From a virus (Duplodnaviria; Caudoviricetes), in the IMG/VR virus record IMGVR_UViG_3300031998_000028, positions 50,916 to 114,915 of that record: a DNA stretch of 64,000 nucleotides; one strand, written 5' to 3'. Shown piece after piece: positions 16,380-31,191 of the stretch. The stretch's first letter is position 1; each line of letters starts with the position of its first letter. Under the pieces are notes generated by a model. It made no database searches. It worked only from the letters and a program-made list of their open reading frames with translations, and was not told the DNA's origin. The translations under genes were made by a program, and so were the position numbers.

Positions 16380-17287
16380 AAGGCGGTGGGTAAATTGGCC
16401 CTCGCAGTTAGTGGGACAAAGTAAACAAAACCCACTCGAATGCGCGCGAAATGCTAAGTATCGCGGCAGGGGTTATATATAATGGGTGTAGCGAAAATAG
16501 TCGAAAAGTACCTACACCAAAGGTAATTGTTCTGCCCTTTAAATCTTTTGTATGGGGTACGATTATAGCAGGCTTAGCACTGGAGAATGGATAATACATA
16601 CAAAAGTAAGTGTATCTGCGCGAGGGTGGAATACGGTTAAATTTGAGGTTGCGGTCCCAAGTAGCGAAAGCGGAGCTTGGTAAGTTAGCGAGATACATTT
16701 TAAAAAGAAGTTGGGAGGTCTACCTTTCTACCTCCCCTAACTTCTACGAGGTAACCCTCCCAATGGCCGTAGTGCAAGGCGGCAGAATCGGTAAGACAGG
16801 CCTATGGCAGTAACGTCGAGACCGTGAAGTGGTGAGCACATCGTATAGTGAGACGAGAGGTAACGTGAACCATCGTACAATCGCGCGCCGTAAGTTGGCG
16901 GTCGGGTAGACTAAGCCCGATAATAACAAAGCCCATAGGGAGTCATGACCTTTTGGAATATTGGATAAGGAAAGGGGTCCATGTAAAGATGCGATTCTAT
17001 ACAATAGTGGAGCAGAAACTATAAACGTCATCTGCCGGGTAAGGCCACAGTACCATAAGTTAAGGTTGAGTGGCGGCCATCTATCGGGTCTAAAAGATAG
17101 AAAACTTATCGAAATAACTGAAACAGTAGAGAAGAGAAGAGGATAACAGGTCGCAAGCTCTTACTTGGAGTTGCTAACCAAGAAACTGCGGGACTCTGCG
17201 CCGCCGCACGCTGTAGTAAGAAGTAGATATGGGGAGAAATCCCGTCACGTGGCGGACGCGTGACATAAATAAATAAAAGTTCCGCAA
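16380..17287 (+). ncRNA. large ORF-free structured RNA (GOLLD/ROOL-size candidate)
   Basis: about 900 nt without a credible ORF, many hairpins with GNRA-like loops, between a promoter and the first tRNA. Confidence 0.45.
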
Positions 17288-17292
17288 CTTAT

Positions 17293-17368
17293 GGGGGATT
17301 GGTGTTAGTGGCAAGCATGGCTGCCTTCCAAGCAGCAGGGGCCGGTTCGAGTCCGGTATCTCCTTCCA
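17293..17368 (+). tRNA. tRNA-Gly(TCC)
   Basis: cloverleaf, GCTGC-CTTCCAA-GCAGC, CCA end. Confidence 0.9.
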
Positions 17369-17443
17369 TAGACCCATACAGCAAAACTGTAGAAATGCAA
17401 TAAAAATATATTGGATATTTATGATTACATTTATAAGGGTCTA
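17369..17443 (+). ncRNA. CAGCAA-stem small RNA copy E1 (Y-RNA-like candidate)
   Basis: TAGACCC-ATA-CAGCAA...GGGTCTA terminal stem. Confidence 0.6.
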
Positions 17444-17487
17444 GTTTATATGGCGCGGTATCCCAATCGGAAGCAGGAAGTGGACTT

Positions 17488-18206
17488 TCGTTTTAAACGA
17501 TGAGAGCGCGCGGATGTGAAAACGCCGCGTGGATGCTGGCTAATTCGGCGAAAGACTCTATGAGTTAACGCCGAGCTAAAATTTGGAAAACACTTCAAAA
17601 AAATATAGTTGTGTCTTCCATTTTCTACTTTATAGTAGAACGGAGGATAAGAAATGAGAACTGATATTTTAGAGAAGCGTGAGCAAATTCTTACATGGAT
17701 TGCCGAAGGTAGAACAAAAACTTATATGTGTTAGGAATTGCACTGTAAGCCAGAAACTTTAAATAAATATTTAGAGAAAATGGAAATTGTTTATAATGGC
17801 AATCAAAGCGGCAAGGGCATACCTAAAGCTAAATATAAATCTACACTTGTTGAATATCTTGCAACAAGTTAGGATATTTAGACAAATAAAGTAAGGCTTA
17901 AGCTGTTACGAGAAGGTTATAAAGAACATAAGTGTGAGTGTTGTGGTTTAACAACCTGGTTAGATAAGCCAATTCCTTTGGAATTACATCACATTGATGG
18001 CAACCGACACAATAATACTATTGAAAATTTCATGCTTTTGTGTCCAAATTGTCATGCTTTTACTGACTCATATTGTGGTAAGAATAGCGCCAAATAAATG
18101 TGTAGAGACTATATACCAGCCTCCTAAGGACGGCGCGCCGTCTATGGAGAAGACATAGTCCAGACTACAACGCAGTAATGCGGCTATGGTGACATAGAGT
18201 AGTAAG
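17488..18206 (+). mobile_element. group I intron in the tRNA-Leu(UAA) anticodon
   Basis: U at the 5' splice site, terminal G, GTAGAGACT (R/P7) near 18102 and GAAGACATAGTCC (S) near 18149. Confidence 0.85.
17654..18097 (+). CDS. intron-encoded HNH homing endonuclease (TAG=Gln)
   Basis: CECCG..LELHHIDGNRHNN..N..LLCPNCH; three in-frame TAG; GGAGG RBS. Confidence 0.85.
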
Positions 18207-18379
18207 AAAATCCATTCAGTATGGGTTCGAATCCCATTCGCGCTACCAAGGATTCTTTTAATCCTCCTTTTTTCAAGTTTCTTTTTGGATGGGACGCGTA
18301 CGGCGTGGTGATGAACTGCTGAGGGCGCGCGTCATGTAAGTTGGGCGGGGCGGCTTACAAAAATTTTGAGGTATCCAAT

Positions 18380-18763
18380 ATGAGTGTTTCTTTATTTATT
18401 GCTCTTTTTGTGGGCGGCGGTTTTGTAAATATTTTATTAACCCAAGCAATCAAATAGTTTTATTATAATAGAAATGAAGCAGCAAGCCCAAACGTAATTG
18501 CCCTTGTAAATGCAATTATAATAGGTGGAGGAGGGACTGCTTTTGCCTATTCTTTATTAGGAATTGAATGGTCGCTAAATAATATTTTATGTCTTATTGC
18601 AATGATGCTATTTGTTTGGATGGGGAGTATGATTGGATATTCCAAAATTTTAGAGACTTATCGCCAATTCCGTACTTGGTAGATGCAAGTAAATTAGGGA
18701 AAAGATATAGTTGATGCAACGCAGGAACTCGTAGATAAAGTAAATAATGAAGAAAACGAATGA
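18380..18763 (+). CDS. holin-like membrane protein (TAG=Gln)
   Basis: three TM segments, open only with TAG=Gln. Confidence 0.6.
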
Positions 18764-18764
18764 T

Positions 18765-18840
18765 GTGGATGTAGCTTAATTGGTAAAGCGCCACCCTGCC
18801 ACGGTGGAGAGTGCGAGTCCAATTCTCGTCATTCACTCCA
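18765..18840 (+). tRNA. tRNA-Gly(GCC)
   Basis: cloverleaf, CCA end. Confidence 0.9.
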
Positions 18841-18843
18841 TAT

Positions 18844-18919
18844 GGGCAGTTAGCAAACTTGGTGGATGCGCGCGGTTGAAGCCCGTGAGAAAGAGGGTCG
18901 GTACCTCTACTGCCCACCA
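18844..18919 (+). tRNA. tRNA-Phe(GAA)
   Basis: cloverleaf, atypical T loop, CCA end. Confidence 0.8.
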
Positions 18920-18994
18920 AACCCTATAAATTTTGACTTTTTCTAAAATTTATGATATAATAATTATAGAAAGTTGAGAAAGGGGAATAAAGAA

Positions 18995-19180
18995 ATGAGT
19001 CCGTTTGATGATTTTGATACGCAGCGTCAGTCCGATGAGGACGCTTGGGAGCGTGAGTTCCTTGAGTGGTTCAGCAAGCAGATTTCTCCGTATAAGGTCT
19101 ATGAGATTGATTGTGATGACGGTACTCATGGAGACCTTATTTATGAGTGGACTGGCCATCCCGATTTTTCTCTTTCGTAA
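18995..19180 (+). CDS. small acidic hypothetical protein
   Basis: own promoter and RBS. Confidence 0.55.
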   Translation: MSPFDDFDTQRQSDEDAWEREFLEWFSKQISPYKVYEIDCDDGTHGDLIYEWTGHPDFSLS

Positions 19181-19182
19181 TT

Positions 19183-19258
19183 GGTGCCATCGTCTAGCGG
19201 TCAAGGATAGCAGACCCTCAATCTGCTGACACCAGTTCAAATCTGGTTGGCATCACCA
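19183..19258 (+). tRNA. tRNA-Glu(CTC)
   Basis: cloverleaf, CCA end. Confidence 0.9.
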
Positions 19259-19710
19259 GCCGTACCTTTAGTCTTTTGAGTTCGATAACGAGGAGAAAAG
19301 ACAGTGAGATTTGAGAGTATTCACTAATCAATAACTCTCCGGCGTTCTGGTGCGTCGTTAAGCTTAAAAAGCCAAACAGCCCTCGGCGGGTCAAGACACA
19401 ACGTAAAATAGTTGCCGCCATGTCCAAATGAATGGGTTATGACATTAAACTGTACTCGTTTCCGCGGCTTGGTGCTGCCGCGTCAAAAAAGTAATCCGGT
19501 GGAATAGAAAGTTCGGCCACCTACAAAATAATGGGAACAGTCGCGGGCGCGCGATGGTAAGAAATTACGTATCAAATGTTTTGCCAACTTCTCTTGGCTG
19601 CAAACAAGAGTGCGGTTGTTGCAGCAACCAAAACGTAGACCGGATGCGTTAAGACCGGCGGACATCTCGCCCGTTGAGGAGAGAAGAGTGGGTAAAAGAG
19701 CTAAATCCCA

Positions 19711-19818
19711 CCGCCAGAACATAAGGGCATATGGAATGGTTGGATGCTCGGGGCACCGTGGCCTTTTGCCAACACGGATGATACCTTGGAGACGTGGGTT
19801 CGAACCCCGCCCTGGCGG
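19711..19818 (+). ncRNA. enlarged tRNA-like element
   Basis: CCGCCAG/CTGGCGG closing stem, GTGGG-TTCGAAC-CCCGC T arm, extended D- and anticodon-like arms, no CCA. Confidence 0.45.
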
Positions 19819-20142
19819 CTTTGTGGCTGCTGGGTAGTTTAGAAGGTCAAAACACCAGGGACATTAATGGTCGCGTAGGGAACCTCCTCGTGGTGCGACT
19901 GGACGGACAGTAGTATGCGATTACTGAGCCGAGAACTAATTCCCAGATAGTTTCAATCTAATATCGCATAGGATTGAAGTGTACTCCCCTTAAGCCCAAG
20001 GGCGCAGGTTGTGACCAGCGATACAACAGTAACTCGGGATGCGCATGAAATTTCGGCTATAAGGTACACAGCGAGCCGTAGAAGCAGTACAGCTATCGAA
20101 TTAAAACTGGGGTAGCGGGCAGTATAATCATACCGCTAATAT

Positions 20143-20219
20143 CGCGCAGTAGTCGAATTGGCGAAGACGCCGGCCCTTCAAGCCGGAGATTACGGGTTCA
20201 ATCCCCGTCTGCGTGACCA
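20143..20219 (+). tRNA. tRNA-Glu(TTC)
   Basis: cloverleaf, CCA end. Confidence 0.9.
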
Positions 20220-20295
20220 GTAAGTTTGTCGGTATAATAAGACTTGAAAACCGTCGTTAAAAAGTTTAGCTAATCTTTGAGCTTCGGCTCTAAAT

Positions 20296-20372
20296 GGGCG
20301 AGTACCCCAATTGGGAGAGGGAATAGGCTCAAACCCTATGAAGTGTGGGTTCGAATCCCACCTGGCCTACCA
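20296..20372 (+). tRNA. tRNA-Leu(CAA), short variable arm
   Basis: ATAGG-CTCAAAC-CCTAT, CCA end. Confidence 0.85.
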
Positions 20373-20623
20373 ACGTTTTTATGAATTGGACGTTAATCAA
20401 TTCATCGTGTGAGAGGATGGATTTTCAGATTAAACTACCACTGGCGACGCCTCCAATGTCGATATGTGGCACAGTCATTTGAAAACACGTTAAACGAAAA
20501 CGAAAGTAAATCTGAACTAGATCGTGGAGTGATGCGTATGAAAATTACAAAAATCTCCGAAGGCGAGGAAACGCCGATTGGCTAGTAGAAGACCTGGGCA
20601 TGTCTTTAAACTGCCTACTATAT

Positions 20624-20699
20624 GGGCTGGTAGCTCTAATGGGAGAGCGTCTGCTTTGCACGCAGAGGGTTGTGGGTTCAAGTCCCATCTGGTCCACCA
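20624..20699 (+). tRNA. tRNA-Ala(TGC)
   Basis: cloverleaf with G3.U70, CCA end. Confidence 0.9.
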
Positions 20700-20912
20700 A
20701 TATGCGCGCCATATCGCATGGGGACGAGGACTGGAGCAACGTCCCAACAGGCATAAATAAATAAAGTCCCCAGGATGTTTTGCGGTATCAGTACATAACC
20801 GCCTCAAGAGCCGAAGTGTTTGTGGGTCTGTGCCTCTTATATGGCAATAGAGAGGAAACGAGAAGGACAAGGCGTGAAATCGGTTTGAAACGCGAAAAAC
20901 CCACATCTATAT

Positions 20913-20986
20913 CGCACCGTAGAGGAGCGGTCCCTTGCTAGGTTCATACCCTGGAGACGCAAGTTCGAATCTTGCCGGTGCTACCA
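20913..20986 (+). tRNA. tRNA-Met(CAT), initiator-like
   Basis: C1 mismatch at 1:72, CAT anticodon. Confidence 0.8.
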
Positions 20987-20989
20987 AAT

Positions 20990-21064
20990 GCCAGGCTAGC
21001 ACAATGGAAGTGCAATTCCTTCATACGGAAAAGGTTCTCGGTTCAAGTCCGGGGCCTGGTACCA
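20990..21064 (+). tRNA. tRNA-Met/Ile2(CAT)
   Basis: cloverleaf, CCA end. Confidence 0.8.
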
Positions 21065-21112
21065 GCGGCAAAGAATAGAACGCCGTAAACGTAAAAGGGA
21101 GGAATTTTACAA

Positions 21113-21418
21113 ATGAAGTATTTTAGTGAAAAAACGAACAAAACTTACGACACCGAAAAAGATTGCCTTTTTGCAGAAGCCGAATATGACAAAGCAATCG
21201 CTGAGGAAAAAATTAAAAAGGAAAGACTTAGTACAGAACGTAAGGCGCGCGCGAGCGAGGTCGAAGAAGCATACAAAGCAGTTCTCGAAGCATCAAAACA
21301 CTACAGAGAAAAGCTCAATGCTTTTGTAAAAGACTATGGCTCTTTTCATATGACTTTGCGGACTGGGGACGGAAATCCTTTTGATTTATTTGATAGGTTT
21401 TTTGACCGCTTTTGGTAA
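21113..21418 (+). CDS. coiled-coil hypothetical protein
   Basis: GGAGG RBS. Confidence 0.65.
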   Translation: MKYFSEKTNKTYDTEKDCLFAEAEYDKAIAEEKIKKERLSTERKARASEVEEAYKAVLEASKHYREKLNAFVKDYGSFHMTLRTGDGNPFDLFDRFFDRFW

Positions 21419-21462
21419 CTAAAAAAGTAGAAGAATTAATTAAAGCTTTTACTTGAAAGTGA

Positions 21463-21617
21463 AAGGCTCAGGCAGCAAAAAATTTTTTTGTAGGTCTTAC
21501 CTGCTTCTTGATATTGAAGATATATCACAACTGGATAATATATCGAGTTGTTCCACGTGGGCGCAATCACACGTTAAAAATGGTCGAGAACGCATTACTC
21601 GTAAAAACGTGAGCCTT
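21463..21617 (+). ncRNA. CAGCAA-stem small RNA copy E2 (multi-hairpin cargo)
   Basis: AAGGCTC-AGG-CAGCAA...GAGCCTT, about five internal hairpins. Confidence 0.55.
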
Positions 21618-21883
21618 GGATACTTAAAATTTGTAATTTCTCAAATTTTATGTTATAATTATTATAGAAAGTGAGAGAGGTACGAAGTACGAAGGCCTCT
21701 TGGCAACAATAACGAAGTATTTACCTCACTTCTGAACTCCGGTCTATCAAACGTAGTGGACACACAGTGCATATCTACGGGGTACGCGTTAAAGCGGAGT
21801 TTTGGGTAGAATATCATAGGGAATACACCTCATAAAGTCAGTAGCGTCGGGGCTGACTATAATTACAAGCCGGCGCGCCTTAT

Positions 21884-21958
21884 GGGTCATTAGTCCAATG
21901 GCAGAACGGCGGACTGTTAATCCGTATGTTACAGGTTCAAGTCCTGTATGACCCGCCA
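21884..21958 (+). tRNA. tRNA-Asn(GTT)
   Basis: cloverleaf, CCA end. Confidence 0.9.
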
Positions 21959-21965
21959 CATATGG

Positions 21966-22040
21966 TCCCCTATGGTGTAATGGTAGCATAGCTGGCTCTA
22001 ACCCAGCAGATACCCGTTCAAATCGAGGTTGGGGGTGCCA
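21966..22040 (+). tRNA. amber-decoding tRNA (CTA anticodon), probably Gln
   Basis: GCTGG-CTCTAAC-CCAGC; unpaired 1:72, G73, D arm resembles tRNA-Gln(CTG) at 25572. Confidence 0.9.
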
Positions 22041-22133
22041 ATAAAGGGGTAGCAAAGGAGTAATTAACCTTTGAGATAATGGCGCCTCTCACGTCAAGCC
22101 CGATAATATATATACTTAGGAGAGGTAAGTATT

Positions 22134-22865
22134 ATGAGTTGCGGCGTTTATAAAATTACCAATTTAATTAATAATCATTGCTATATTGGATAGTCTATTT
22201 ACATTGAACAGCGTTGGCGTAGACATAAATCTAATATTAATAATGCCAATGGAGAAGAATATAACTATCCTTTATATCGAGCAATAAGAAAATATGGAAT
22301 AAGTAATTTTTCTTTTGAAATATTAGAAGAATGTTTATCTTCATAGTTAAATGAAAGAGAACAATTTTATATCTCTTATTATAAACCTGAATATAATCAA
22401 ACAATTGAAGGTCAGATAACTGGTGGTTATATTAAATTAACTCCAATTACGCTTCAATCTCTTAGATAGGATTTATTAGATAATAAGTTACCTTATCGTG
22501 AGTTATCTTCAAAATATAATATTGGATTAGATTGTATTTCTAGAATTAATCAAGGCCATGCTTATCATGATGATAATATAAATTACCCGATAAGAAAAGT
22601 AAAAAGACTTGAATAGAAATATTGTCCTATTTGTGGAAAACCAATTCAACAAGATTCTACTATGTGCATTTCTTGTTATAATAATAGTAGAAGTTAGGCT
22701 CCTACAAAAGAAGAATTGTATAATACTTTGGTAAAATTGAACGGTAATTTTACTAAAGCAGGACAGTATTATAATATTAGTGATAATGGTGTTCGTAAAT
22801 GGTGTAAAAAATATGGATTGCCATATCATTCTAAAGACTATAAAAAAATTTTTGAAAGGAAGTAA
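22134..22865 (+). CDS. GIY-YIG homing endonuclease (TAG=Gln)
   Basis: GVYKITN..CYIG[TAG]S..EQRW; C-terminal Zn-finger/HTH. Confidence 0.8.
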
Positions 22866-22869
22866 TATC

Positions 22870-23061
22870 ATGCTCAATAAGTTTGCTAAAATCTATAACA
22901 TTAGTCCGAAGCCCGATTCCAAACGTCAACAGTGGCTTCGAGATAATGCGCGTACATATGACAGAGTAGTCTGCGCAGAATGCGGTGAAGGGCATACAAC
23001 TCTATATAAAGTTGGCGAGCAGTATTACTGCCTCGAGCATCGAAATAGAGTAGTGTCATAA
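22870..23061 (+). CDS. small Zn-finger protein
   Basis: CAEC..YCLEH. Confidence 0.5.
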   Translation: MLNKFAKIYNISPKPDSKRQQWLRDNARTYDRVVCAECGEGHTTLYKVGEQYYCLEHRNRVVS

Positions 23062-24655: not shown

Positions 24656-24658
24656 AAT

Positions 24659-24734
24659 GCCCTTGTGGACAATCGGTAAAGTCGACAGCCTGTCACGCTG
24701 TAGGTAGCGGGGTCAGCACCCGTCAGGGGCGCCA
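24659..24734 (+). tRNA. tRNA-Asp(GTC)
   Basis: cloverleaf, atypical T loop, G73. Confidence 0.85.
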
Positions 24735-24831
24735 CTTAAAATTGGTCTAAAATAAAAATTGGGCTAATTCCCCAAAGTCAGATTTCTTCCAAAAATTATA
24801 TTCTCTTTTATATTTTTCTACTTATAAATGA

Positions 24832-24910
24832 CGGGAAGTAGAGGAAGAGGGACCTCGCCTGTTTTGGGAACAGGACATTAGTGCGGCTTCGAGTGCTGCC
24901 TTCCCGACCA
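24832..24910 (+). tRNA. tRNA-Pro(TGG)
   Basis: C1-G72, CCTGT-TTTGGGA-ACAGG. Confidence 0.8.
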
Positions 24911-24928
24911 ATTAAAGGAGAATATAAT

Positions 24929-25501
24929 ATGGGAAAAAGTTTGACATTAGAAGAAATTAACGCTCGTTTTGAGAATAGTTTTGATCAAAAGGTTATTGCA
25001 ACTAAATATTTAAATAAGCGTTCTCCAGTTGAATTAAAATGCTTAGAGTGTGGACATGAATGGTCACAACCGGCCGCATCTGTACTATTTAATGAGCATC
25101 ATAAATGTCCAAATTGCGGCATTGTTAAAAAGATAAAGCTTAAATGTGCTTATTGTGGAAAAGAAATTGAGCGATTTCCAAGCGACATTAAGGCAAATAA
25201 AACAGGTTATTTTTATTGTAGTCACACTTGTGGTAATCGTCATAAAAATCAATTACGCATGGAAAGTGGCGAATGGGACAATTCAGTAAATTATCGCTAT
25301 AAAGCTATGTATAATTTACCACATAAGTGTGCTGTATGTGGATGGGCAGAAGATGAGCGTATTTTAGAAGTTCATCATAAGGACGAAGATAGAAACAATA
25401 ATGCATTAGATAATTTAACCATTTTATGCCCAACTTGTCACAGAAAAATTACACTTGGGTACTATAAATTAACTGAGGATTATAAATTAATTGAGATATA
25501 A
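24929..25501 (+). CDS. Zn-ribbon HNH endonuclease
   Basis: CxxC repeats, EVHHKD.DRNNN.LDNL.ILCPTCH. Confidence 0.85.
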   Translation: MGKSLTLEEINARFENSFDQKVIATKYLNKRSPVELKCLECGHEWSQPAASVLFNEHHKCPNCGIVKKIKLKCAYCGKEIERFPSDIKANKTGYFYCSHTCGNRHKNQLRMESGEWDNSVNYRYKAMYNLPHKCAVCGWAEDERILEVHHKDEDRNNNALDNLTILCPTCHRKITLGYYKLTEDYKLIEI

Positions 25502-25571
25502 ATACTGCGGCGGCTCAGTTTGAATGGAGCGGTCTATATGGCTACTCTATGTTTATAACCGCCATTTATAT

Positions 25572-25645
25572 GGGCGATTGGTGTAACGGTAACACATTTG
25601 GCTCTGACCCAAAAGTTTGAGGTTCAAATCCTTAATCGTCTGCCA
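25572..25645 (+). tRNA. tRNA-Gln(CTG)
   Basis: cloverleaf, G73. Confidence 0.9.
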
Positions 25646-26075
25646 AAAGTCAGTAGGCAAGCATTAAAAGCCGAGAAGAAAATATAGTTCCTCAAGATAC
25701 TGTGGCTAGTTTGAGCCAAGGTATAATAAGAATTGGGACACCAGCGGAGAGAACCGCGCAGCTACTGGAGAGAAACCAGACAAAAAACATCTGTGCAACC
25801 CAATTGGAACTCGTGTGATTGAAACTGCACACCTGGCTTTAAAAATTTGATTTTCTATAAATTTTATGATATAATATTTATAGAAAGTAAGGGAAGAAAT
25901 ATCGCTCGCAGTTATAGTTCCGTGCGACTTGAACAAGGGTAAGAGCACCCCAGGACACTTACCTGGCTCCTATTGACACATGACGGAAGTCGGTGTAAAT
26001 CCGACAGCTTCTCTTCTTTATAAGTAAACCGGGGAGGTACTGAGACGTCCGGATTATCAAAAACCTCCGTTATAT

Positions 26076-26149
26076 ACCGCCATAGTGTAAAGGTAACACA
26101 GAAGCCTTTGAAGCTTTTGTTATTGGTTCGAATCCAGTTGGCGGTGCCA
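26076..26149 (+). tRNA. tRNA-Gln(TTG)
   Basis: cloverleaf, G73. Confidence 0.9.
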
Positions 26150-26152
26150 TAT

Positions 26153-26228
26153 GCCCGATTACCCCAACGGAAGAGGGAGCTGGCTTAGAACCAGTAAAGT
26201 GTGGGTTCAAATCCCATGTCGGGTACCA
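26153..26228 (+). tRNA. tRNA-Leu(TAG), short variable arm
   Basis: GCTGG-CTTAGAA-CCAGT. Confidence 0.85.
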
Positions 26229-26233
26229 AATAT

Positions 26234-26316
26234 GGGCGAGTTGAGCAATGGTGGCTCAGGAGTCTGTAAAACTCTGGTCTAACGACATGTAGGTTCAAGT
26301 CCTACCTCGCTCACCA
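26234..26316 (+). tRNA. tRNA-Tyr(GTA)
   Basis: cloverleaf with long variable arm. Confidence 0.9.
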
Positions 26317-26404
26317 TTTAAGCGACCGCTCTAAACGGTATGGGTGAAATCTAACCCATTGACAATGAGTGAAGGAACGTCACTCTGACGCTGTAATATT
26401 ATAT

Positions 26405-26482
26405 GCGCCAGTAGCTCAATGGAGAGAGCGCGGGGCCACGAACCCCGGACTTGTGGGAGTTCAAATCTTCTCTGGCGTACCA
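26405..26482 (+). tRNA. tRNA-Arg(ACG)
   Basis: CGGGG-CCACGAA-CCCCG. Confidence 0.85.
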
Positions 26483-26615
26483 ATAGTTGGGTTCCAGTAG
26501 AGACTGAAAAGGACCTTTGGTTCCAGATGACTGTTACCAAGCAGTACTTAGTATGTGTATCCTGTAGCTAAGGCGAGCCGGAAGTCGCGGGTTTCCGCCC
26601 AACTAAATTTTATAT

Positions 26616-26691
26616 ACGGATTTAGCTCAACTGGAAGAGCATTGCGTTTACACCGCAGAGGTTATGGGTTCAAGTCCCTTAGTCCGTACCA
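26616..26691 (+). tRNA. tRNA-Val(TAC)
   Basis: cloverleaf, CCA end. Confidence 0.9.
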
Positions 26692-26693
26692 TT

Positions 26694-26759
26694 AAGACCC
26701 GTACAGCAAATATAACTTACAAAACTGCAAATTTTTGGAAGAAGTTTTTATTGGGTCTT
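26694..26759 (+). ncRNA. CAGCAA-stem small RNA copy E3
   Basis: AAGACCC-GTA-CAGCAA...GGGTCTT; inner hairpin AAAA-CTGCAAA-TTTT. Confidence 0.6.
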
Positions 26760-26765
26760 GTATAT

Positions 26766-26852
26766 GCACGAGTGCTGCAATAGGAAGCCAGGCATGGTTG
26801 AGGTCCATGTGTCCGATAGGACATAGGGGTTCAAGTCCCCTCTCGTGTACCA
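26766..26852 (+). tRNA. tRNA-Leu(GAG)
   Basis: long variable arm, CCA end. Confidence 0.85.
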
Positions 26853-26880
26853 AATAACTAAAAAGAGAAGTGAGAAAAAA

Positions 26881-27357
26881 ATGATAAGTCCAACTCATGG
26901 AGAAATAACTCTGCGGCAGACCGCACTCTTAATCAAAAATTTCATAGAGTTAGACCCGGATTCACAATATGCAATCTATATTGGTTCTGATAGTCAAAAT
27001 ACTTACTACACCAAGATGGTAACTGTCATCGCAGTCCATAAGGTCGGCCGCGGTGGTCAGTACTTTTATGAGGTTTCCAAATACGACAAGATTCGTGATA
27101 TTCGCACGAAGCTTTATACGGAAACTCAACTTAGCTTGGATATGACAGGTAGGCTTTTTGATGAATTTGAAGCTCTTGGGTTTGAATATGATGCAGATAA
27201 TATCATGTTCTGTATTCATATTGACGCAGGTAACGGTGGTCCAAGTGGTCAAGTAATACCTGAAGTAGTTGGATATGTTCATTCTATGGGTTATAACTGC
27301 GAAGTTAAACCAGATAGTCCGATTGCTTCTTGTATTGCAGATAGAATAAGTAAGTAA
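26881..27357 (+). CDS. RNase H-like YkuK/DUF458 family protein
   Basis: IGSDSQ...VIAVHKVGRGG..E...S, IHIDAG..G.S, KPDS..AS..ADR. Confidence 0.75.
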   Translation: MISPTHGEITLRQTALLIKNFIELDPDSQYAIYIGSDSQNTYYTKMVTVIAVHKVGRGGQYFYEVSKYDKIRDIRTKLYTETQLSLDMTGRLFDEFEALGFEYDADNIMFCIHIDAGNGGPSGQVIPEVVGYVHSMGYNCEVKPDSPIASCIADRISK

Positions 27358-27364
27358 GTAAATA

Positions 27365-27453
27365 AAGGCGCGCACAGCTAAATCTATTATAGCATAATGG
27401 TAATGCACCCGACTTGTAATCAGGATATACGGTTCGAATCCGTTTAGCGCCTT
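27365..27453 (+). ncRNA. CAGCWA-stem small RNA copy E4 carrying a tRNA-Thr(TGT)-like body without acceptor stem
   Basis: AAGGCGC-GCA-CAGCTA...GCGCCTT encloses D arm, CTTGTAA loop and ACGG-TTCGAAT-CCGT. Confidence 0.65.
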
Positions 27454-27464
27454 GAATAAATAAA

Positions 27465-27537
27465 AAGACACTTGCAGCAAATCTTTTCTTTAATCGCCAT
27501 TGAATTATAATATTTTGATTAGATATTAGGGTGTCTT
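27465..27537 (+). ncRNA. CAGCAA-stem small RNA copy E5
   Basis: AAGACAC-TTG-CAGCAA...GTGTCTT. Confidence 0.6.
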
Positions 27538-27549
27538 GATACAAACTAA

Positions 27550-27665
27550 TAGACCCATACAGCAATCATTCTTATAGAGAATATGTTATTGGTTCGATTC
27601 CAATTATGCAAGCCATAAATTTTGCGTATTGAGCAATAGGTAGCTCAGTTCTACTAAAGGGTCTA
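27550..27665 (+). ncRNA. CAGCAA-stem small RNA copy E6 with circularly permuted tRNA-like domain (YrlA-like topology)
   Basis: TAGACCC-ATA-CAGCAA...T arm, loop-closed acceptor stem, D arm...GGGTCTA. Confidence 0.7.
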
Positions 27666-27718
27666 GTCTTTATCTCGACCGAGATAAATCATTTTGGAGA
27701 AAAAGGAGAAAATAAAAC

Positions 27719-29245
27719 ATGAATTTTACTAACGCTCTTGATAAGGAGTTCAACTATAAGTTGACCGAAAATGGCGGCCTTGCGCATAAGTCTACCTGTG
27801 ACGCGCTCTATGATATGTTTGCCCTGGGTGGCGCATATCGTAGTCGTAGCGATGAGGATTGTGTCTTCCTTTTCATGAAGGCATTTGAGGAAAGTCCTAC
27901 TTATGCTATGAAGTGCCTCTTCTATCTGCGTGACATTTTGCAGGGACAGGGCGAACGTCGCTTCTTCCGTGTCTGCATTAAGTGGGCCGCGGACAACCAT
28001 CCTTTGGAGATGGAGCGCAATCTCAAGTACGTACCGGAATACGGTCGTTGGGATGACCTATATGCCTTCGTAGGCACCAAGCTGGAAGCGAGTATGTGGG
28101 CCTTCATGTATGAGCAGTTCCGTCTGGATATGGCTTCCAAGACTCCTTCTCTGCTCGGAAAGTGGCTCAAGTCTGAGAATACTTCCAGCAAGGAGTCTCG
28201 CGTCCTTGGCGCAAAGACTCGTAAGGCTCTCGGTATGACTGCGCCTGCCTACCGCAAGGCTCTGTCTTCTCTTCGTAAGCGCATCAATGTCCTTGAGCGT
28301 CTTATGAGTGAGCGCCGTTGGGATGAAATCGAGTTCGATAAAATCCCTTCTAAGGCTGGCCTCATCTACAAGAACGCCTTCGCGCGTCACGATGTGGAGC
28401 GCGCCCGCAATAAGGCTGTGCAGACTTACGAGCAGTTCGCTAAGGATAAGAACACTAAAGTTAACGCCAAGGCTCTATATCCTTACGAGGTAGTCGAAAA
28501 GGCTATTGACGTGTTCGGTGGTATCTACTGGCGTTGGAACCGCCATGAAGTGCCTTTGGATGATACCAATCGTCTGATGGTCAACAAGTACTGGGAGAAT
28601 CTGGCAGAGTATATCTCTAAGCTGGATATGAACGCTCTTTGTGTTGTGGATACCAGCGGCTCTATGCATGGTACTCCTATTGACATCGCAATCTCTCTCG
28701 GTATGATTGCGGCTGATAAGGCTCATGGTCCTTTCCATGGACGCTACATCAGCTTCAGTTCTCGTCCTCAGCTCATTAAGGTTGAGGGTGTGGATTTCGT
28801 AGATAAGGTTCGCCGCATCTATGAAACCAATCTTTGCGAGAACACCAATCTCGAAGCAACTTTCGATATGCTTCTCAATGTGGCTCAGAAGAACCACATG
28901 AAGCAGAAGGATTTGCCAGATACCATTATCGTCATCAGCGATATGGAGATTGACTGTGCATATGGTGGCTATGGTTGGAGTTCTGACCATAGCGCGGCTC
29001 GTGCAAAGAACCGCACCATGATGGAGAATATGCGTCGTAAGTGGGCACGTGCAGGCTATAAGCTTCCTAAGATGGTGTACTGGAACGTGGATGCGCGCCA
29101 GGATACATTCTTGGATGATGGCCCAGACGTAACTTACGTTAGCGGTGCAAGTGCTATCTTGTTTGAGCAAGTCGCAAAGGGCATCACCGCGCAGGACCTC
29201 ATGTTCGAGAAGCTCGACAGTGAGCGTTACGCAAAAATAAAATAA
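27719..29245 (+). CDS. DUF2828-family protein with C-terminal vWA domain (Ro60/TROVE-like architecture)
   Basis: TENG, FYLRDI..GQGERRFF, EYGRWDDL, GKWLKSE; MIDAS DTSGS and ISDME; VYWNV. Confidence 0.8.
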   Translation: MNFTNALDKEFNYKLTENGGLAHKSTCDALYDMFALGGAYRSRSDEDCVFLFMKAFEESPTYAMKCLFYLRDILQGQGERRFFRVCIKWAADNHPLEMERNLKYVPEYGRWDDLYAFVGTKLEASMWAFMYEQFRLDMASKTPSLLGKWLKSENTSSKESRVLGAKTRKALGMTAPAYRKALSSLRKRINVLERLMSERRWDEIEFDKIPSKAGLIYKNAFARHDVERARNKAVQTYEQFAKDKNTKVNAKALYPYEVVEKAIDVFGGIYWRWNRHEVPLDDTNRLMVNKYWENLAEYISKLDMNALCVVDTSGSMHGTPIDIAISLGMIAADKAHGPFHGRYISFSSRPQLIKVEGVDFVDKVRRIYETNLCENTNLEATFDMLLNVAQKNHMKQKDLPDTIIVISDMEIDCAYGGYGWSSDHSAARAKNRTMMENMRRKWARAGYKLPKMVYWNVDARQDTFLDDGPDVTYVSGASAILFEQVAKGITAQDLMFEKLDSERYAKIK

Positions 29246-29270
29246 GGGAAGAGAAATCTTCCCTTTCCGT

Positions 29271-29352
29271 GCGTCCTTATCGTGGCCGGCTCCGCCTTGA
29301 AAGCGGCTGGTATCAGGGATGATATGGGGATCGACACCTCAGGGGCGCGCCA
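29271..29352 (+). tRNA. tRNA-Ser(TGA), non-canonical (8/4-compatible)
   Basis: CCGC-CTTGAAA-GCGG, long variable arm, G73. Confidence 0.7.
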
Positions 29353-29355
29353 TAT

Positions 29356-29440
29356 GCGGAGTTCGCCTAATGGTAGGGCAACAGTCTAGAAAACTGTCGG
29401 ATGAAAGTCTATGTGGGTTCAAGTCCCTCACTCCGCGCCA
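29356..29440 (+). tRNA. tRNA-Ser(AGA)
   Basis: ACAGT-CTAGAAA-ACTGT, long variable arm, G73. Confidence 0.8.
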
Positions 29441-29451
29441 ATTTATAATAT

Positions 29452-29540
29452 GCGCTGTGAACCAGTCGGGGTACTGGGCTAGCCTGCTAAGCTAAGTGTT
29501 CTCTTTTGGGAATTTGGGTCGGGACCAACGCGGCGCGCCA
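29452..29540 (+). tRNA. tRNA-Ser(GCT), 8/4 fold
   Basis: GCGCTGTG/CGCGGCGC 8-bp acceptor stem, TTGG/CCAA 4-bp T stem. Confidence 0.75.
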
Positions 29541-29542
29541 AT

Positions 29543-29618
29543 GGTTTGATAGTATAGTTGGTAATTATAAGGCACTTGTAATGCTTAGACCTCGGTTCAA
29601 ATCCGAGTCAAACCTCCA
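29543..29618 (+). tRNA. tRNA-Thr(TGT)
   Basis: cloverleaf, CCA end. Confidence 0.85.
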
Positions 29619-29639
29619 TATAAAACCTTCCAATAATAT

Positions 29640-29713
29640 GTACCCCTGGTGTAACGGTAGCATATCCGGCTCCAACCCGGCTGGTCAGAGTTCAAATCTT
29701 TGGGGGTATGCCA
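29640..29713 (+). tRNA. tRNA-Trp(CCA)
   Basis: cloverleaf, G73. Confidence 0.9.
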
Positions 29714-29750
29714 GCGCGCAAGCGTAAATTTTATTAAAGGCAGGTCAAAT

Positions 29751-31145
29751 ATGGAAAGCTTCTTTAATCTCAAGCATCGCAATACCACCATTAGAACCGA
29801 GATTCTTGCAGGCATTACAACCTTTATGGCTATGGCATATATCTTGTTTGTAAATGCAGGTATGTTTGCCACACTCCCCGATGTAAGTTATGAAGGTATG
29901 TATATTGCAACCGCAATTTCAGCCTGTGTCGGTTCTCTTTTAATTGGTCTTATTGCCAATCTTCCCCTCGCACAAGCATCTGGTATGGGACTTAATGCGT
30001 ATTTTGTCTATTCAGTATGTCTTGGTTTGGGCTTTACTTATGCTAATGCCCTTGTAATGGTTTTGTTTGATGGTATTATGTTTATAATACTCACAGCAAC
30101 AGGACTAAGAAAGCTATTGTTTAATGCAATTCCGACGCCAATTAAAACAGCTATTTCTGCAGGAATTGGTTTATTTATTGCTTATATTGGTCTACAATCT
30201 GCTGGTATTATAATTCCTGATGCCTCAACAGCATCCACTATGTCATCTTTTAATGTGTTTAGTGGAGCAGCAAATTGGGCAACAATTATGCCTATGCTTG
30301 TATCTATGATTACTATATTGATTATCGCGGCCTTGACATCTTTCAAGAAGCGTGGCGCGGTATTAATCGGTATAATTGCAGGTACAGTTCTATACTATCT
30401 TGGTGGCTTTACAATTCCAGGATTTTATGATGGTTTTGCTTTCTCTACTATTAGCACAGGAAAAGCTTTTGCAGCATTTGGTAAAGAATCACTATTCGCT
30501 GTATTTCGTAATGGTTTTGACTTTAGTGCGTACATTGCCGCACATGGCCAAGCAAACTTTGTTATGAGTCTTGTCACAACAATGATTGCGTTTTGTATCG
30601 TAGATATGTTTGATACAATGGGTACTTTGTATGGTGCGTGCTCACGCGGCGGCCTTATGAATAAAGATGGTGAAGTTCTTGCTCTTGACCGCGCAATGCT
30701 CAGTGATGCTATTGCCACCACAACTGGCGCAATGTTTGGTACTTCAACTGTAACAACTTTTGTTGAAAGTTCTGCTGGTATCGCAGAGGGCGGCCGCACA
30801 GGACTGGCCGCGGTTGTAACTGCTGGTCTATTCTTTATCTCAATGTTCTTTGCACCTATTGCTTCTCTTATCCCAGGCGCAGCAACTGCGGCCGCACTTA
30901 TCTATGTTGGCGCATTGATGCTTATGTCTCTTAAAGATATTAATTGGGAAGACGCAGAGGTTGCTATTCCGGCATTTTTAACTATTACTTTTATGGCATT
31001 TAGTTATAGTATTAGTAATGGTATTGGTATTGGTGTCTTGTCTTATACAGTAGTTAAAATGTTTACTGGTAAGATTAGAGAAATTCATGGAGCAACTTGG
31101 GTTATTGACGTGTTGTTCCTCGCAATGTTTTTACTTAGTCACTAA
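29751..31145 (+). CDS. NCS2 AzgA/PbuG-like purine permease
   Basis: TEILAGITTFMAMAYI, ASGMGLNAYF, DMFDTMGT, TTFVESSAGIAEGGRTG. Confidence 0.92.
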   Translation: MESFFNLKHRNTTIRTEILAGITTFMAMAYILFVNAGMFATLPDVSYEGMYIATAISACVGSLLIGLIANLPLAQASGMGLNAYFVYSVCLGLGFTYANALVMVLFDGIMFIILTATGLRKLLFNAIPTPIKTAISAGIGLFIAYIGLQSAGIIIPDASTASTMSSFNVFSGAANWATIMPMLVSMITILIIAALTSFKKRGAVLIGIIAGTVLYYLGGFTIPGFYDGFAFSTISTGKAFAAFGKESLFAVFRNGFDFSAYIAAHGQANFVMSLVTTMIAFCIVDMFDTMGTLYGACSRGGLMNKDGEVLALDRAMLSDAIATTTGAMFGTSTVTTFVESSAGIAEGGRTGLAAVVTAGLFFISMFFAPIASLIPGAATAAALIYVGALMLMSLKDINWEDAEVAIPAFLTITFMAFSYSISNGIGIGVLSYTVVKMFTGKIREIHGATWVIDVLFLAMFLLSH

Positions 31146-31191
31146 TAAAATTATAGTCCTCCTACTAGACTTTAAATAGTAGGATTTATAT

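What the first reader, a model, noticed from the sequence alone, without database searches (positions are those of the whole stretch)
17244..31184. Family of compact H-type pseudoknots in tRNA spacers
At least eight sequence-unrelated elements share the stem1-loop, A-rich linker, stem2 geometry: 17244-17285 (GTCACGT/GCGTGAC; GCGGA/TCCGC), 20372-20405 (AACGT/ACGTT; ATGAATTG/CAATTCAT), 20589-20617 (AAGAC/GTCTT; TGGGCA/TGCCTA), 20721-20769, 21836-21876 (AGTCAGT/GCTGACT; GCGTCGG/CCGGCGC), 23407-23435 (GGTC/GACC; CCCGTTA/TAGCGGG), 26029-26068 and 31155-31184 (AGTC/GACT; TCCTACTA/TAGTAGGA). Six end 6-8 nt before a tRNA 5' end. Inference: they are exonuclease roadblocks that protect RNAs released by RNase P cleavage, or a class of small decoy RNAs.
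Basis: partly seen in the sequence, partly recalled or inferred. Interest (0 to 1): 0.75.

Follow-up and report, generated by a model that had tools for sequence, protein, structure and literature searches.

The report
Pseudoknot caps just upstream of phage tRNAs
In the tRNA gene array of a stop-codon-recoded gut/rumen phage, small RNA pseudoknots that stay paired through compensating mutations sit a fixed 4-8 bases before tRNA starts; they most likely cap the RNA piece that is freed when RNase P cuts out the tRNA, an arrangement I did not find described for phages.

Summary
All eight elements are in the sequence as described. Six end 6-8 nt before a tRNA 5' end, and I found a seventh of this kind at 20106-20138. 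A pseudoknot scanner finds 5 strong ones in the 3-10 nt slot before the 33 tRNAs, where about 0.09 are expected by chance. Across 668 distinct tRNA leaders from related phage contigs, 43 (36 sequence clusters) carry such a pseudoknot, against about 3 in shuffles.

Orthologues covary. After a permease gene, stem 2 is rewritten in three phages yet stays paired. Stem 1 is enriched even when the stem-2 hairpin is taken as given. Loops fit classical H-type geometry: L1 is 0-2 nt and L3 is 52% A.

Elements #2 and #4 are not individually supported. "Sequence-unrelated" is only partly true, because some copies are paralogues.

They match no Rfam family, and they are not theta (HDV-like) ribozymes or intrinsic terminators.

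Best reading (about 0.45, untested): they are modular 3'-end caps of the non-tRNA RNA released by RNase P. The main rival is tuning or insulation of RNase P cleavage. No RNA data could be obtained.

The parts
17244..17285 (+). Pseudoknot #1. S1 17244-17251 pairs with 17257-17264 (8 bp). S2 17252-17256 pairs with 17281-17285 (5 bp). L3 is 16 nt and A-rich. A 7-nt tail leads to tRNA-Gly(tcc) at 17293.
   Evidence: stack sum -26.2. There is no close orthologue. Distant relatives carry a different pseudoknot at the same place before tRNA-Gly(tcc).
20106..20138 (+). S1 20106-20109 pairs with 20120-20123. S2 20113-20118 pairs with 20133-20138. A 4-nt tail leads to tRNA-Glu(ttc) at 20143. It closes the roughly 880-nt non-coding stretch 19259-20142.
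   Evidence: -18.0. Relatives L004 and L003 have unrelated pseudoknots at the orthologous position.
20372..20405 (+). Element #2. It starts at the last base of tRNA-Leu(caa). S2 is 8 bp and S1 is 5-6 bp. This member is weak.
   Evidence: In L003 an S2-type hairpin is kept with different letters, but S1 is only 3-4 bp. Pseudoknots starting 0-8 nt after tRNAs number 12, against about 2 in shuffles, but several of the 12 are terminators.
20588..20617 (+). Pseudoknot #3. S1 20588-20593 pairs with 20602-20607. S2 20595-20600 pairs with 20612-20617. L3 is 4 nt. A 6-nt tail leads to tRNA-Ala at 20624.
   Evidence: In L003 a G-U pair of S2 becomes G-C and the ends of the stems shorten. Related leaders precede tRNA-Tyr, tRNA-Ser and tRNA-Arg in relatives.
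20721..20769 (+). Element #4. The geometry is loose (L2 7, L3 19) and it is not adjacent to a tRNA. It is not supported as a family member.
   Evidence: found only with relaxed limits. (no alignable orthologue). It shares a 14-nt A-rich motif with #1.
21836..21876 (+). Pseudoknot #5. S1 21836-21842 pairs with 21852-21858 (7 bp). S2 21844-21850 pairs with 21870-21876 (7 bp). L3 is 11 nt. A 7-nt tail leads to tRNA-Asn at 21884, followed by the suppressor tRNA(CTA) at 21965.
   Evidence: -27.9, the strongest. S1 covaries in L003, with one pair changed on both sides and one G-U changed to C-G. L002 has an 8-bp S1. It lies about 175 nt downstream of a promoter-like site at 21631-21659.
23407..23435 (+). 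Pseudoknot #6. S1 23407-23410 pairs with 23420-23423. S2 23413-23419 pairs with 23429-23435. L3 is 5 nt. An 8-nt tail leads to tRNA-Lys(ttt) at 23444. It lies inside the 53-nt spacer after tRNA-Ile(gat).
   Evidence: -20.7. L004 and L003 keep it, with an A-U pair changed to G-U. It is absent in L002/L123, where the two tRNAs abut, and in L122, where an ORF precedes the tRNA.
26029..26068 (+). Pseudoknot #7. S1 26029-26032 pairs with 26049-26052. S2 26033-26038 pairs with 26063-26068. L2 is 10 nt and L3 is 10 nt. A 7-nt tail leads to tRNA-Gln(ttg) at 26076.
   Evidence: Both stems differ yet pair in L003 and L122. The module is absent in L002, where the same upstream RNA runs straight to the tRNA.
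31155..31184 (+). Pseudoknot #8. S1 31155-31158 pairs with 31168-31171. S2 31160-31167 pairs with 31177-31184 (8 bp). L3 is 5 nt. A 7-nt tail leads to tRNA-Thr(ggt) at 31192. It starts 9 nt after the stop codon of the permease gene 29700-31145.
   Evidence: In alignment A5, 97.9% of cells pair and 5 of 8 S2 pairs change on both sides; slid controls pair at 25-40%. S1 is invariant.
17293..31499 (+). Array of 33 tRNA genes, all on the + strand with CCA encoded, interspersed with homing-endonuclease and other small genes. It provides the RNase P sites that the pseudoknots precede.
   Evidence: The leader consensus just before tRNA +1 is A(-4) 62%, U(-3) 76%, A(-2) 72%, U(-1) 79% in 668 leaders.

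Best explanation
The elements are RNA pseudoknots on the + strand. They act as modular 3'-terminal caps of the non-tRNA segments of the tRNA-array transcripts: spacer RNAs, promoter-proximal leader RNAs, a roughly 880-nt non-coding RNA, and the permease mRNA.

Each cap folds as a classical H-type pseudoknot. Stem 1 is 4-8 bp. Its loop is almost entirely the 5' arm of stem 2 (5-9 bp). L1 is 0-2 nt. L3 is A-rich and its length grows with stem 1. The fold ends 4-8 nt before tRNA +1, and the intervening tail ends in AUAU.

Inferred steps:
1. Host RNase P binds that short single-stranded leader and cuts at tRNA +1.
2. The upstream RNA is released with a tail of 8 nt or less, directly behind a compact stacked pseudoknot.
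3. This gives 3'-to-5' exonucleases (PNPase, RNase R, RNase II type) too little single strand to load. They also meet a fold that is hard to unwind from the 3' side.
4. The upstream RNA therefore outlives the cut. The cap does the job a terminator hairpin does at ordinary 3' ends, without stopping transcription into the tRNAs.

Shown here: the structures, their placement, their covariation and their modular gain and loss. Inferred: RNase P cleavage at these sites and exonuclease resistance.
For: 1. Placement. Five strong pseudoknots lie in the 3-10 nt slot before tRNAs, where about 0.09 are expected. In relatives 43 of 668 unique leaders carry one, against 1-5 in six shuffles, with a peak at 4-7 nt. 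These fall into 36 sequence clusters.

2. RNA on the + strand. Reverse complements give 5 hits against 33, and G-U pairs are used.

3. Covariation. The post-permease S2 is rewritten in three phages with 97.9% pairing. Asn S1, both Gln stems, and S2 in the Gly(tcc), Tyr/Ser and Thr(cgt) families all vary while staying paired.

4. True pseudoknot, not just a hairpin. Given the S2 hairpin, S1 occurs in 56 of 258 leaders, against 18-27 in three controls. L1 is 0-2 nt, L3 is 52% A against 32% background, and S1 and L3 lengths correlate (rho 0.35, p 0.02).

5. The cap belongs to the upstream RNA. After the permease gene the same pseudoknot precedes tRNA-Thr in W and L122 but tRNA-His in L002 and L003. 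L082 has a plain hairpin there. Relatives with no tRNA downstream have an intrinsic terminator plus a promoter at that spot. The same tRNAs (Asn, Lys, Gln) lack the pseudoknot in close relatives where a homing-endonuclease ORF or another tRNA lies upstream.

6. Precedent. The phage T5 record annotates stable RNAs (RNAX of 719 nt, RNAIII and others) that end exactly where a tRNA begins. RNAX ends in a 17-bp hairpin 5 nt before tRNA-Arg.

7. General design. Leaders in this clade have an unpaired tail of 4-8 nt behind a structure in 221 of 668 cases, against 89 in shuffles. The AUAU tail fits an RNase P leader. Published work shows that stable structure within 2 nt of the site slows RNase P about 10-fold (PMC10731613), which explains the lower limit on spacing.
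Against: Pseudoknots are as frequent in short inter-tRNA spacers (60-119 nt) as in long ones. There, a 3' block would also hinder exonucleolytic trimming of the upstream CCA-bearing tRNA, for example #6 in a 53-nt spacer.

Only 8 of 40 directly follow a sizeable ORF, so the value of the protected RNA is mostly unknown.

Some genes run straight into a tRNA with no cap (19180 to 19183).

Many leaders use plain hairpins, so pseudoknot topology is not obligatory.

My free-energy comparison of pseudoknot against nested fold is crude. It uses stack sums plus a flat 9.6 kcal/mol penalty, and the advantage is only 0.6-7.6 kcal/mol.
Confidence: 0.45

Rival explanations
1. The pseudoknots serve the downstream tRNA rather than the upstream RNA. 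They lock the distal leader into a self-contained fold so that it cannot pair with the acceptor end or RCCA. They present a defined 4-8 nt leader to RNase P. They may also set the rate or order of cleavage within the array. This is not exclusive of the cap model.
For: The spacing is tightly fixed relative to the cleavage site. The AUAU tail is conserved. The literature reports that leader stem-loops near the site slow RNase P about 10-fold and enforce directional processing, and that leader pairing with RCCA changes rates by orders of magnitude (PMC10731613). Pseudoknots occur regardless of spacer length.
Against: The same tRNAs do without any pseudoknot in close relatives. Neighbouring tRNAs only 3-4 nt apart have no leader structure at all. 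The post-permease pseudoknot stays with the gene while the downstream tRNA changes. A plain hairpin would insulate equally well, so the enrichment of stem 1 is unexplained.
Confidence: 0.27
2. The pseudoknots act at the level of transcription. They would be structured 3' elements that pause or partly terminate RNA polymerase before the tRNAs, working as attenuators. Alternatively they are a way of placing a stable fold next to a U/A-rich tract without causing termination.
For: Stem 2 alone is a hairpin followed by a tail that is 57% T. At the permease 3' end the element replaces a true terminator. One conserved leader, before tRNA-Ile(gat) at about 23270-23314, is a terminator-like hairpin with a T run.
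Against: The terminator scan flags none of the pseudoknots. The tails are only 4-8 nt and often begin with G, C or A rather than a U run. The S2 'loops' are 9-25 nt and are occupied by stem 1.
Confidence: 0.1
3. The pseudoknot-bearing spacers are themselves functional small RNAs or protein-binding modules. Examples would be decoys, or ligands of a phage or host RNA-binding protein such as the DUF2828/DUF7788 protein encoded in the array.
For: Short spacers consisting of little more than a hairpin plus a pseudoknot are common. The array encodes a DUF2828/DUF7788 protein and several tRNA-like fragments. T5 has stable RNAs of unknown function in its tRNA region.
Against: Loops and stems show no conserved letters across families, only conserved geometry. 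That argues against a sequence-specific ligand or target. No complementarity to any candidate target was seen. No binding evidence exists.
Confidence: 0.1
4. The elements are small self-cleaving ribozymes that process tRNA ends, either relatives of the theta (minimal HDV-like) ribozymes found next to tRNAs of recoded gut phages, or pistol-like.
For: The context is the same: TAG-recoded gut/rumen phages with tRNA arrays (PMC10879173). HDV-like and pistol folds contain an H-type crossing of two helices.
Against: L2 is 0-1 nt, so there is no room for P3/L3/P1.1, and there is no conserved J4/2 cytosine. The elements lie upstream of tRNA 5' ends, whereas theta ribozymes cut at tRNA 3' ends of mostly CCA-less tRNAs; here CCA is encoded. 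L3 is usually 4-6 nt, too short to hold a pistol P2 strand. Rfam gives no ribozyme match even at E up to 5.
Confidence: 0.02
5. The elements are chance complementarity with no function.
For: Loose pseudoknots are common in any sequence: 33 per 100 kb at the -18 threshold outside the array. Elements #2 and #4 cannot be told from that background.
Against: The positional enrichment (P about 4e-8 in the window), the roughly 13-fold excess in 668 leaders, the covariation and the loop composition all argue against chance.
Confidence: 0.02

Closest known systems
MALAT1 / MEN-beta 3' end (triple-helical ENE plus A-rich tract directly upstream of the tRNA-like mascRNA/menRNA, 3' end made by RNase P). 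From my own knowledge; the mascRNA family is in Rfam as RF01684.
   Same: A compact higher-order fold with an A-rich strand sits immediately upstream of a tRNA-shaped RNase P substrate. Under the cap model, RNase P cleavage creates a non-terminator 3' end that the fold protects.
   Different: MALAT1 is a vertebrate nuclear lncRNA. Its U-rich double motif clamps an A tract in a U-A-U triple helix. Here there are no U-rich motifs, real tRNAs lie downstream, the fold is an H-type pseudoknot of 29-42 nt, and protection is untested.
Stable RNAs of the phage T5 tRNA region (RNAX, RNAIII, RNAI and others), and by recollection the T4 species 1/2 RNAs
   Same: These are non-tRNA RNAs co-transcribed with phage tRNAs whose annotated 3' ends coincide with a tRNA 5' end. 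RNAX ends in a long hairpin 5 nt before tRNA-Arg.
   Different: T5 uses plain hairpins or nothing. Pseudoknots are essentially absent from 35 T5 and BUCTxx99 leaders.
Theta ribozymes (minimal HDV-like) next to tRNAs of recoded gut phages (Kienbeck et al. 2024, PMC10879173)
   Same: Same ecological and genomic setting: small pseudoknotted RNAs flanking tRNAs in TAG-recoded phages.
   Different: Theta ribozymes sit at tRNA 3' ends and self-cleave. They need P1, P1.1, P2, P3 and a catalytic C, and they accompany mostly CCA-less tRNAs. The elements here precede tRNA 5' ends, lack P3 and conserved nucleotides, and the tRNAs encode CCA.
Classical H-type pseudoknots with an A-rich L3 (frameshift-stimulating pseudoknots, T2/T4 gene 32 leader pseudoknot, preQ1-I aptamer). 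From my own knowledge.
   Same: The topology and loop rules match: very short L1 across the deep groove of S2, L3 across the shallow groove of S1, A-richness of L3, and near-zero L2 allowing coaxial stacking.
   Different: These elements are not in coding frames, not at ribosome-binding sites, have no conserved ligand-pocket nucleotides, and give no Rfam match. Position is defined by a tRNA 5' end.
Upstream pseudoknots next to tRNA-like structures of plant RNA viruses (TYMV UPSK, TMV upstream pseudoknot domain). From my own knowledge.
   Same: A pseudoknot lies a few nucleotides 5' of a tRNA-shaped domain.
   Different: Those lie in the 3' UTR of eukaryotic RNA virus genomes and act in translation and replication. 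No RNase P-generated end is involved in vivo.
Intrinsic terminator and REP-type 3' stem-loops as mRNA stabilisers in bacteria
   Same: Under the cap model the role is the same. In relatives the same gene end carries a terminator hairpin instead.
   Different: There is no U tract and no termination signature. The end would be made by endonucleolytic cleavage, not by termination.

Membership tests
H-type (classical) RNA pseudoknot | Two helices, with the 5' arm of S2 inside the loop of S1 and the 3' arm of S2 downstream of S1 | tested here: met
   S1 is enriched given S2 (56 of 258 against 18-27).
H-type (classical) RNA pseudoknot | Base pairs maintained by compensatory change in relatives | tested here: met
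   Alignment A5 has 5 of 8 S2 pairs changed on both sides and 97.9% paired. S1 covaries in the Asn and Gln leaders by inspection. MAFFT alignments of those groups were unusable for formal counts because of loop indels.
H-type (classical) RNA pseudoknot | Loop lengths compatible with coaxial stacking (short L1, L2 about 0-1, L3 scaling with S1) and an actual tertiary fold | tested here: inconclusive
   The loop statistics fit, but L1 and L2 were bounded by the scanner. The 3D fold cannot be tested with these tools.
Theta / minimal HDV-like ribozyme | Nested double pseudoknot with P3/L3 and P1.1 between the P2 5' strand and the P1 3' strand, plus a catalytic C in J4/2 | tested here: not met
   Only 0-1 nt (10 nt in #7) lies between the S2 5' arm and the S1 3' arm. 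No conserved C is present. No Rfam ribozyme hit at E up to 5.
Theta / minimal HDV-like ribozyme | Cleavage site within 5 nt of a tRNA 3' end (PMC10879173) | tested here: not met
   Seven of nine elements end 4-8 nt before a tRNA 5' end. Only #2 starts at a tRNA 3' end, and it lacks the fold.
Intrinsic (Rho-independent) terminator | G+C-rich hairpin with a short loop followed at once by a U tract | tested here: not met
   None of the elements is reported by the terminator scan. The tails are 4-8 nt ending in AUAU.
preQ1-I or other pseudoknot riboswitch aptamers | Match to the family covariance model and conserved pocket nucleotides | tested here: not met
   No match at E up to 5 in 16800-31700. 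Loops are not conserved among family members.
MALAT1-type ENE triple helix | Two U-rich strands clamping a 3' A-rich tract | tested here: not met
   By reading, stems are of mixed or G+C-rich composition and no paired U-rich internal loops are present.
MALAT1-type ENE triple helix | 3' end generated by RNase P at a downstream tRNA-like structure, and protected from 3' decay | not testable with these tools
   RNase P cleavage is inferred from tRNA biology and the AUAU leader. RNA data were unavailable.

The most novel reading that the evidence does not exclude
Recoded gut/rumen phages use a bacterial-world counterpart of the MALAT1 strategy. Transcription reads through into tRNAs, host RNase P makes the 3' end, and a 30-40 nt pseudoknot (probably with an A-minor triplex) blocks 3' exonucleases. 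This would yield a set of stable phage mRNAs and small RNAs without terminators. The pseudoknot would be a new class of compact 3'-to-5' exonuclease-resistant RNA that can be moved as a module between loci.
Probability: 0.35. Interest if true: 0.78.

Novelty: new variant of a known kind. Interest (0 to 1): 0.62.

Why it matters
If the cap model is right, these would be natural, very small (about 30 nt), sequence-flexible RNA modules that block 3'-to-5' decay in bacteria. They would be coupled to RNase P processing, a mechanism known so far from vertebrate lncRNAs. That would help explain how phage tRNA arrays double as factories for stable non-coding RNAs, and how genes embedded in arrays are expressed without terminators. 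It would also offer compact stabiliser parts for synthetic biology.

Even under the rival reading, the family gives dozens of natural, covarying leader structures with which to study how 5' leader architecture sets RNase P specificity. It also adds an unannotated structured-RNA class, absent from Rfam, to recoded gut and rumen phages.

Tried and rejected
- Rfam at gathering thresholds and at E up to 5 gave nothing on any element.
- Theta/HDV-like and pistol-like ribozyme readings were rejected on architecture and position.
- The riboswitch reading was rejected because there are no conserved loop nucleotides and no model match.
- The terminator reading was rejected because the scan was negative.
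- A DNA-level palindrome reading was rejected by the strand asymmetry and the use of G-U pairs.
- A pattern search for more orthologues of the post-permease pseudoknot in viral contigs returned only the two contigs already known plus unrelated hits.
- MAFFT alignments of the Asn, Gln and Gly(tcc) leader groups put loop indels in the wrong places, so formal pair counts were made only on the post-permease group.
- I asked whether pseudoknots associate with long upstream RNAs or with ORF ends. They do not: presence is independent of spacer length and only 8 of 40 follow an ORF.
- A second class of pseudoknots starting right after tRNA 3' ends is only weakly enriched and is contaminated by terminators.
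- A PDB sequence search with the DUF2828/DUF7788 protein found nothing.
- Literature searches found no description of leader pseudoknots in phage tRNA arrays. This covers only the held library.
- Not done: a large outgroup survey of tRNA leaders in unrelated phages and in candidate host genomes. Only T5 and one Stenotrophomonas phage were checked.

Full report
**Setting**

The window is the 3' 64 kb of a 114,915-bp IMG/VR viral contig rated 96% complete. It carries 33 tRNA genes, all on the + strand, between 17293 and 31499. One is a CTA-anticodon suppressor at 21965.

Several genes in and around the array have in-frame TAG codons and become long ORFs when TAG is read as a sense codon. So this is a TAG-recoded phage.

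The array is interrupted by HNH and GIY-YIG type ORFs, small ORFs, an RNase H-like gene, a DUF2828/DUF7788 gene and a xanthine/uracil-permease-family gene. There are four near-identical sigma-70-like promoters with extended -10 boxes, and a terminator after the last tRNA.

Six elements end 6-8 nt before an ARAGORN tRNA start.

I wrote a scanner for H-type geometry and scored hits by Turner stacking sums. In 17001-31600 the + strand holds 19/10/5 non-overlapping pseudoknots at -17/-19/-21. Dinucleotide shuffles give 5.1/2.2/0.9 and the minus strand gives 9/5/0.

It missed #4 and gave only a weaker alternative for #7, because both exceed the loop limits.

Position is the decisive statistic. Outside the array the + strand has 33 pseudoknots at -18 or better per 100 kb. 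That predicts about 0.09 ending 3-10 nt before the 33 tRNAs. Five do, a sixth scores -17.98, and #7 is weaker.

**Related phages**

The DUF2828/DUF7788 protein and the permease retrieved about 170 related loci from viral and metagenome contigs, mostly from rumen and gut samples.

Among 668 distinct tRNA leaders (at least 30 nt from the previous tRNA), 43 carry a strict pseudoknot ending 3-10 nt before the tRNA. Six shuffles gave 1-5. An earlier subset gave 33 against 0-6, and 5 for reverse complements.

The ends peak at 4-7 nt. The 43 fall into 36 sequence clusters, so redundancy does not explain the excess.

- L1 is 0-2 nt in 39 of 43.
- L3 is 52% A, against 32% in leaders overall.
- The tail is 57% T.
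- L3 length rises with S1 length (rho 0.35, p 0.02).

The pseudoknot is more than a hairpin. Taking the S2 hairpin as given, an S1 in the right register occurs in 56 of 258 leaders, against 18-27 in three kinds of control (maximum 43 in 200 trials).

**Covariation**

The cleanest case is the element after the permease stop codon. In W/L122, L002 and L003, stem 2 has three different sequences that all pair, while stem 1 and the spacing are unchanged. On alignment A5, 97.9% of cells pair and 5 of 8 S2 pairs change on both sides. Sliding the partner by 1-3 columns drops pairing to 25-40%.

By inspection:
- S1 of the Asn leader changes at two pairs between W and L003, and L002 has an 8-bp version.
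- Both stems of the Gln(ttg) leader differ among W, L003 and L122.
- The pseudoknot before tRNA-Gly(tcc) in distant relatives keeps S1 while S2 takes at least five different paired sequences.
- The Tyr/Ser/Ala leaders form a paralogous group with compensatory S2 changes.

Formal counts for these groups were not possible, because MAFFT misplaces the loop indels.

A crude energy comparison favours the pseudoknot over the best nested fold for each window element that the relaxed scan could score; #7 got no estimate. I give this little weight.

**Weaker members**

#4 is loose, has an alternative pairing and has no orthologue. #2 follows a tRNA, and only its S2 hairpin is conserved. A class of pseudoknots starting right after tRNAs is only weakly enriched and includes terminators.

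"Sequence-unrelated" is partly wrong. #6 and #8 are evident paralogues, and #1 and #4 share a 14-nt motif.

**What they are not**

- No Rfam family matches, even at E up to 5.
- They are not theta ribozymes. Those minimal HDV-like ribozymes lie next to tRNAs in recoded gut phages, but at tRNA 3' ends. They require P3, P1.1 and a catalytic C, and mostly accompany CCA-less tRNAs (PMC10879173). Here there is no room for P3, no conserved nucleotide, the position is upstream of the 5' end, and CCA is encoded.
- L3 is usually too short for a pistol-type P2.
- The terminator scan flags none of them.

**How they most likely work**

Across all 668 leaders the four bases before tRNA +1 are A, U, A, U at 62-79% each. 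A structure ending 4-8 nt upstream is 2.5 times more common than in shuffles (221 against 89).

A review of RNase P specificity reports that stable structure within about 2 nt of the site slows cleavage about 10-fold, and that leader pairing with RCCA has large effects (PMC10731613). So the folds begin just outside the part of the leader that RNase P needs single-stranded.

Three observations tie the pseudoknot to the upstream RNA rather than to the tRNA:

1. The post-permease pseudoknot precedes tRNA-Thr in two phages and tRNA-His in two others. One relative has a plain hairpin there. Relatives without a downstream tRNA have an intrinsic terminator followed by a promoter at the same place.
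2. tRNA-Asn, tRNA-Lys(ttt) and tRNA-Gln(ttg) lack the pseudoknot in close relatives where an endonuclease ORF or another tRNA lies directly upstream. In L002 the same upstream RNA runs to tRNA-Gln without the module.
3. The phage T5 record annotates stable RNAs that end exactly at tRNA 5' ends. The 719-nt RNAX ends in a long hairpin 5 nt before tRNA-Arg.

I therefore favour a 3'-cap role. RNase P releases the upstream RNA with a tail of 8 nt or less behind a compact pseudoknot, which should give 3' exonucleases little purchase. That last step rests on general knowledge of PNPase and RNase R requirements, not on a test here.

**Points against, and rivals**

- Pseudoknots are just as frequent in short spacers.
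- Most follow non-coding RNA (32 of 40).
- In a 53-nt spacer such as that of #6, a 3' block would also impede trimming of the upstream tRNA.

A role in shaping RNase P kinetics, or in insulating tRNA folding, is therefore a serious and non-exclusive rival. Transcriptional pausing or attenuation, and stand-alone RNA or protein-binding functions, are less likely. No RNA-seq could be reached.

**Novelty**

H-type pseudoknots, terminator-type 3' stabilisers and RNase P-generated ends are all known. Searches of the held literature found no description of pseudoknots at a fixed distance upstream of phage tRNAs.

In two outgroup phages the motif is essentially absent. A wider survey was not done.

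I rate it a new variant of a known kind, with moderate-to-high interest because the structure is solid and the proposed function is directly testable.

Noticed in passing
window 21965-22040; examples of in-frame TAG at 17654-18097 and 22134-22865: There is a suppressor tRNA with anticodon CTA. Many ORFs become long only if TAG is read as sense (24 ORFs of 250 aa or more, many with 1-15 TAGs). The phage is TAG-recoded.
   Followed up: partly
window 18132, 21872, 23677, 24482, 29344, 29532, 37720, 61926: The 8-base palindrome GGCGCGCC occurs 8 times, against 0.34 expected. Six copies are in the tRNA array, and three end 3-4 nt before a tRNA 5' end (21884, 29356, 29543). Its meaning is unknown.
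   Followed up: partly
window 18933-18961, 21631-21659, 24150-24178, 25847-25875: Four near-identical promoter-like modules (-35 box, 17 nt, TG-extended -10 box) are followed by a conserved purine-rich start region. Two drive small ORFs. Two drive non-coding RNAs of about 150-200 nt that end in pseudoknots #5 and #7.
   Followed up: partly
window 19259-20142: A non-coding stretch of about 880 nt lies between the two tRNA-Glu genes. It contains a tRNA-like T-arm/acceptor segment and a weak YrlA (Y RNA-like) Rfam hit at 19771-19880 (23 bits, E 0.44, below threshold). Its 3' end is the new pseudoknot at 20106-20138. It resembles the position of T5 RNAX.
   Followed up: partly
window 27387-27446 and 27465-27665, just upstream of the DUF2828/DUF7788 gene 27719-29245: Rfam scores a partial tRNA (model positions 5-66, 42 bits) without an acceptor stem. 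Further tRNA-like pieces lie next to a gene whose Pfam families are DUF2828 and DUF7788. A PDB sequence search with the protein found nothing.
   Followed up: partly
window about 23270-23314, and the orthologous sites in L002, L003, L004 and L122: The leader of tRNA-Ile(gat) is a long G+C-rich hairpin followed by a T run and then ATAT, which makes it terminator-like. It is conserved in five phages, with variation confined to the loop.
   Followed up: no
L002, L003 and L004, leaders of tRNA-Arg(acg); window 26694-26765 before tRNA-Leu(gag): These leaders have nested 'closing-stem' structures. A 7-9 bp helix joins the start and end of the spacer, encloses an inner hairpin and an A-rich linker, and ends about 6 nt before the tRNA. 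The helix shows compensatory changes between phages. The placement is the same as for the pseudoknots but the topology differs.
   Followed up: partly
window 23073-23163: tRNA-Ile(tat) is 91 nt long because of an insertion of about 15 nt in the variable region. The orthologues in L004 and L003 are 77 nt.
   Followed up: no
window 20406-20587 (aligned with L004 and L003 in A1): The 251-nt spacer between tRNA-Leu(caa) and tRNA-Ala is 89% identical across three phages, more conserved than its surroundings. It contains two mini-ORFs preceded by Shine-Dalgarno-like sequences; one ends in a double TAG just before pseudoknot #3. Substitutions in that ORF are mostly non-synonymous, so it may be a structured RNA rather than coding.
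   Followed up: partly
L202 (phage T5, AY543070), record 28038-41566: The T5 record annotates eight 'stable RNAs of unknown function' inside its tRNA region, several abutting tRNA 5' ends. It is a useful experimental system for the cap idea.
   Followed up: partly
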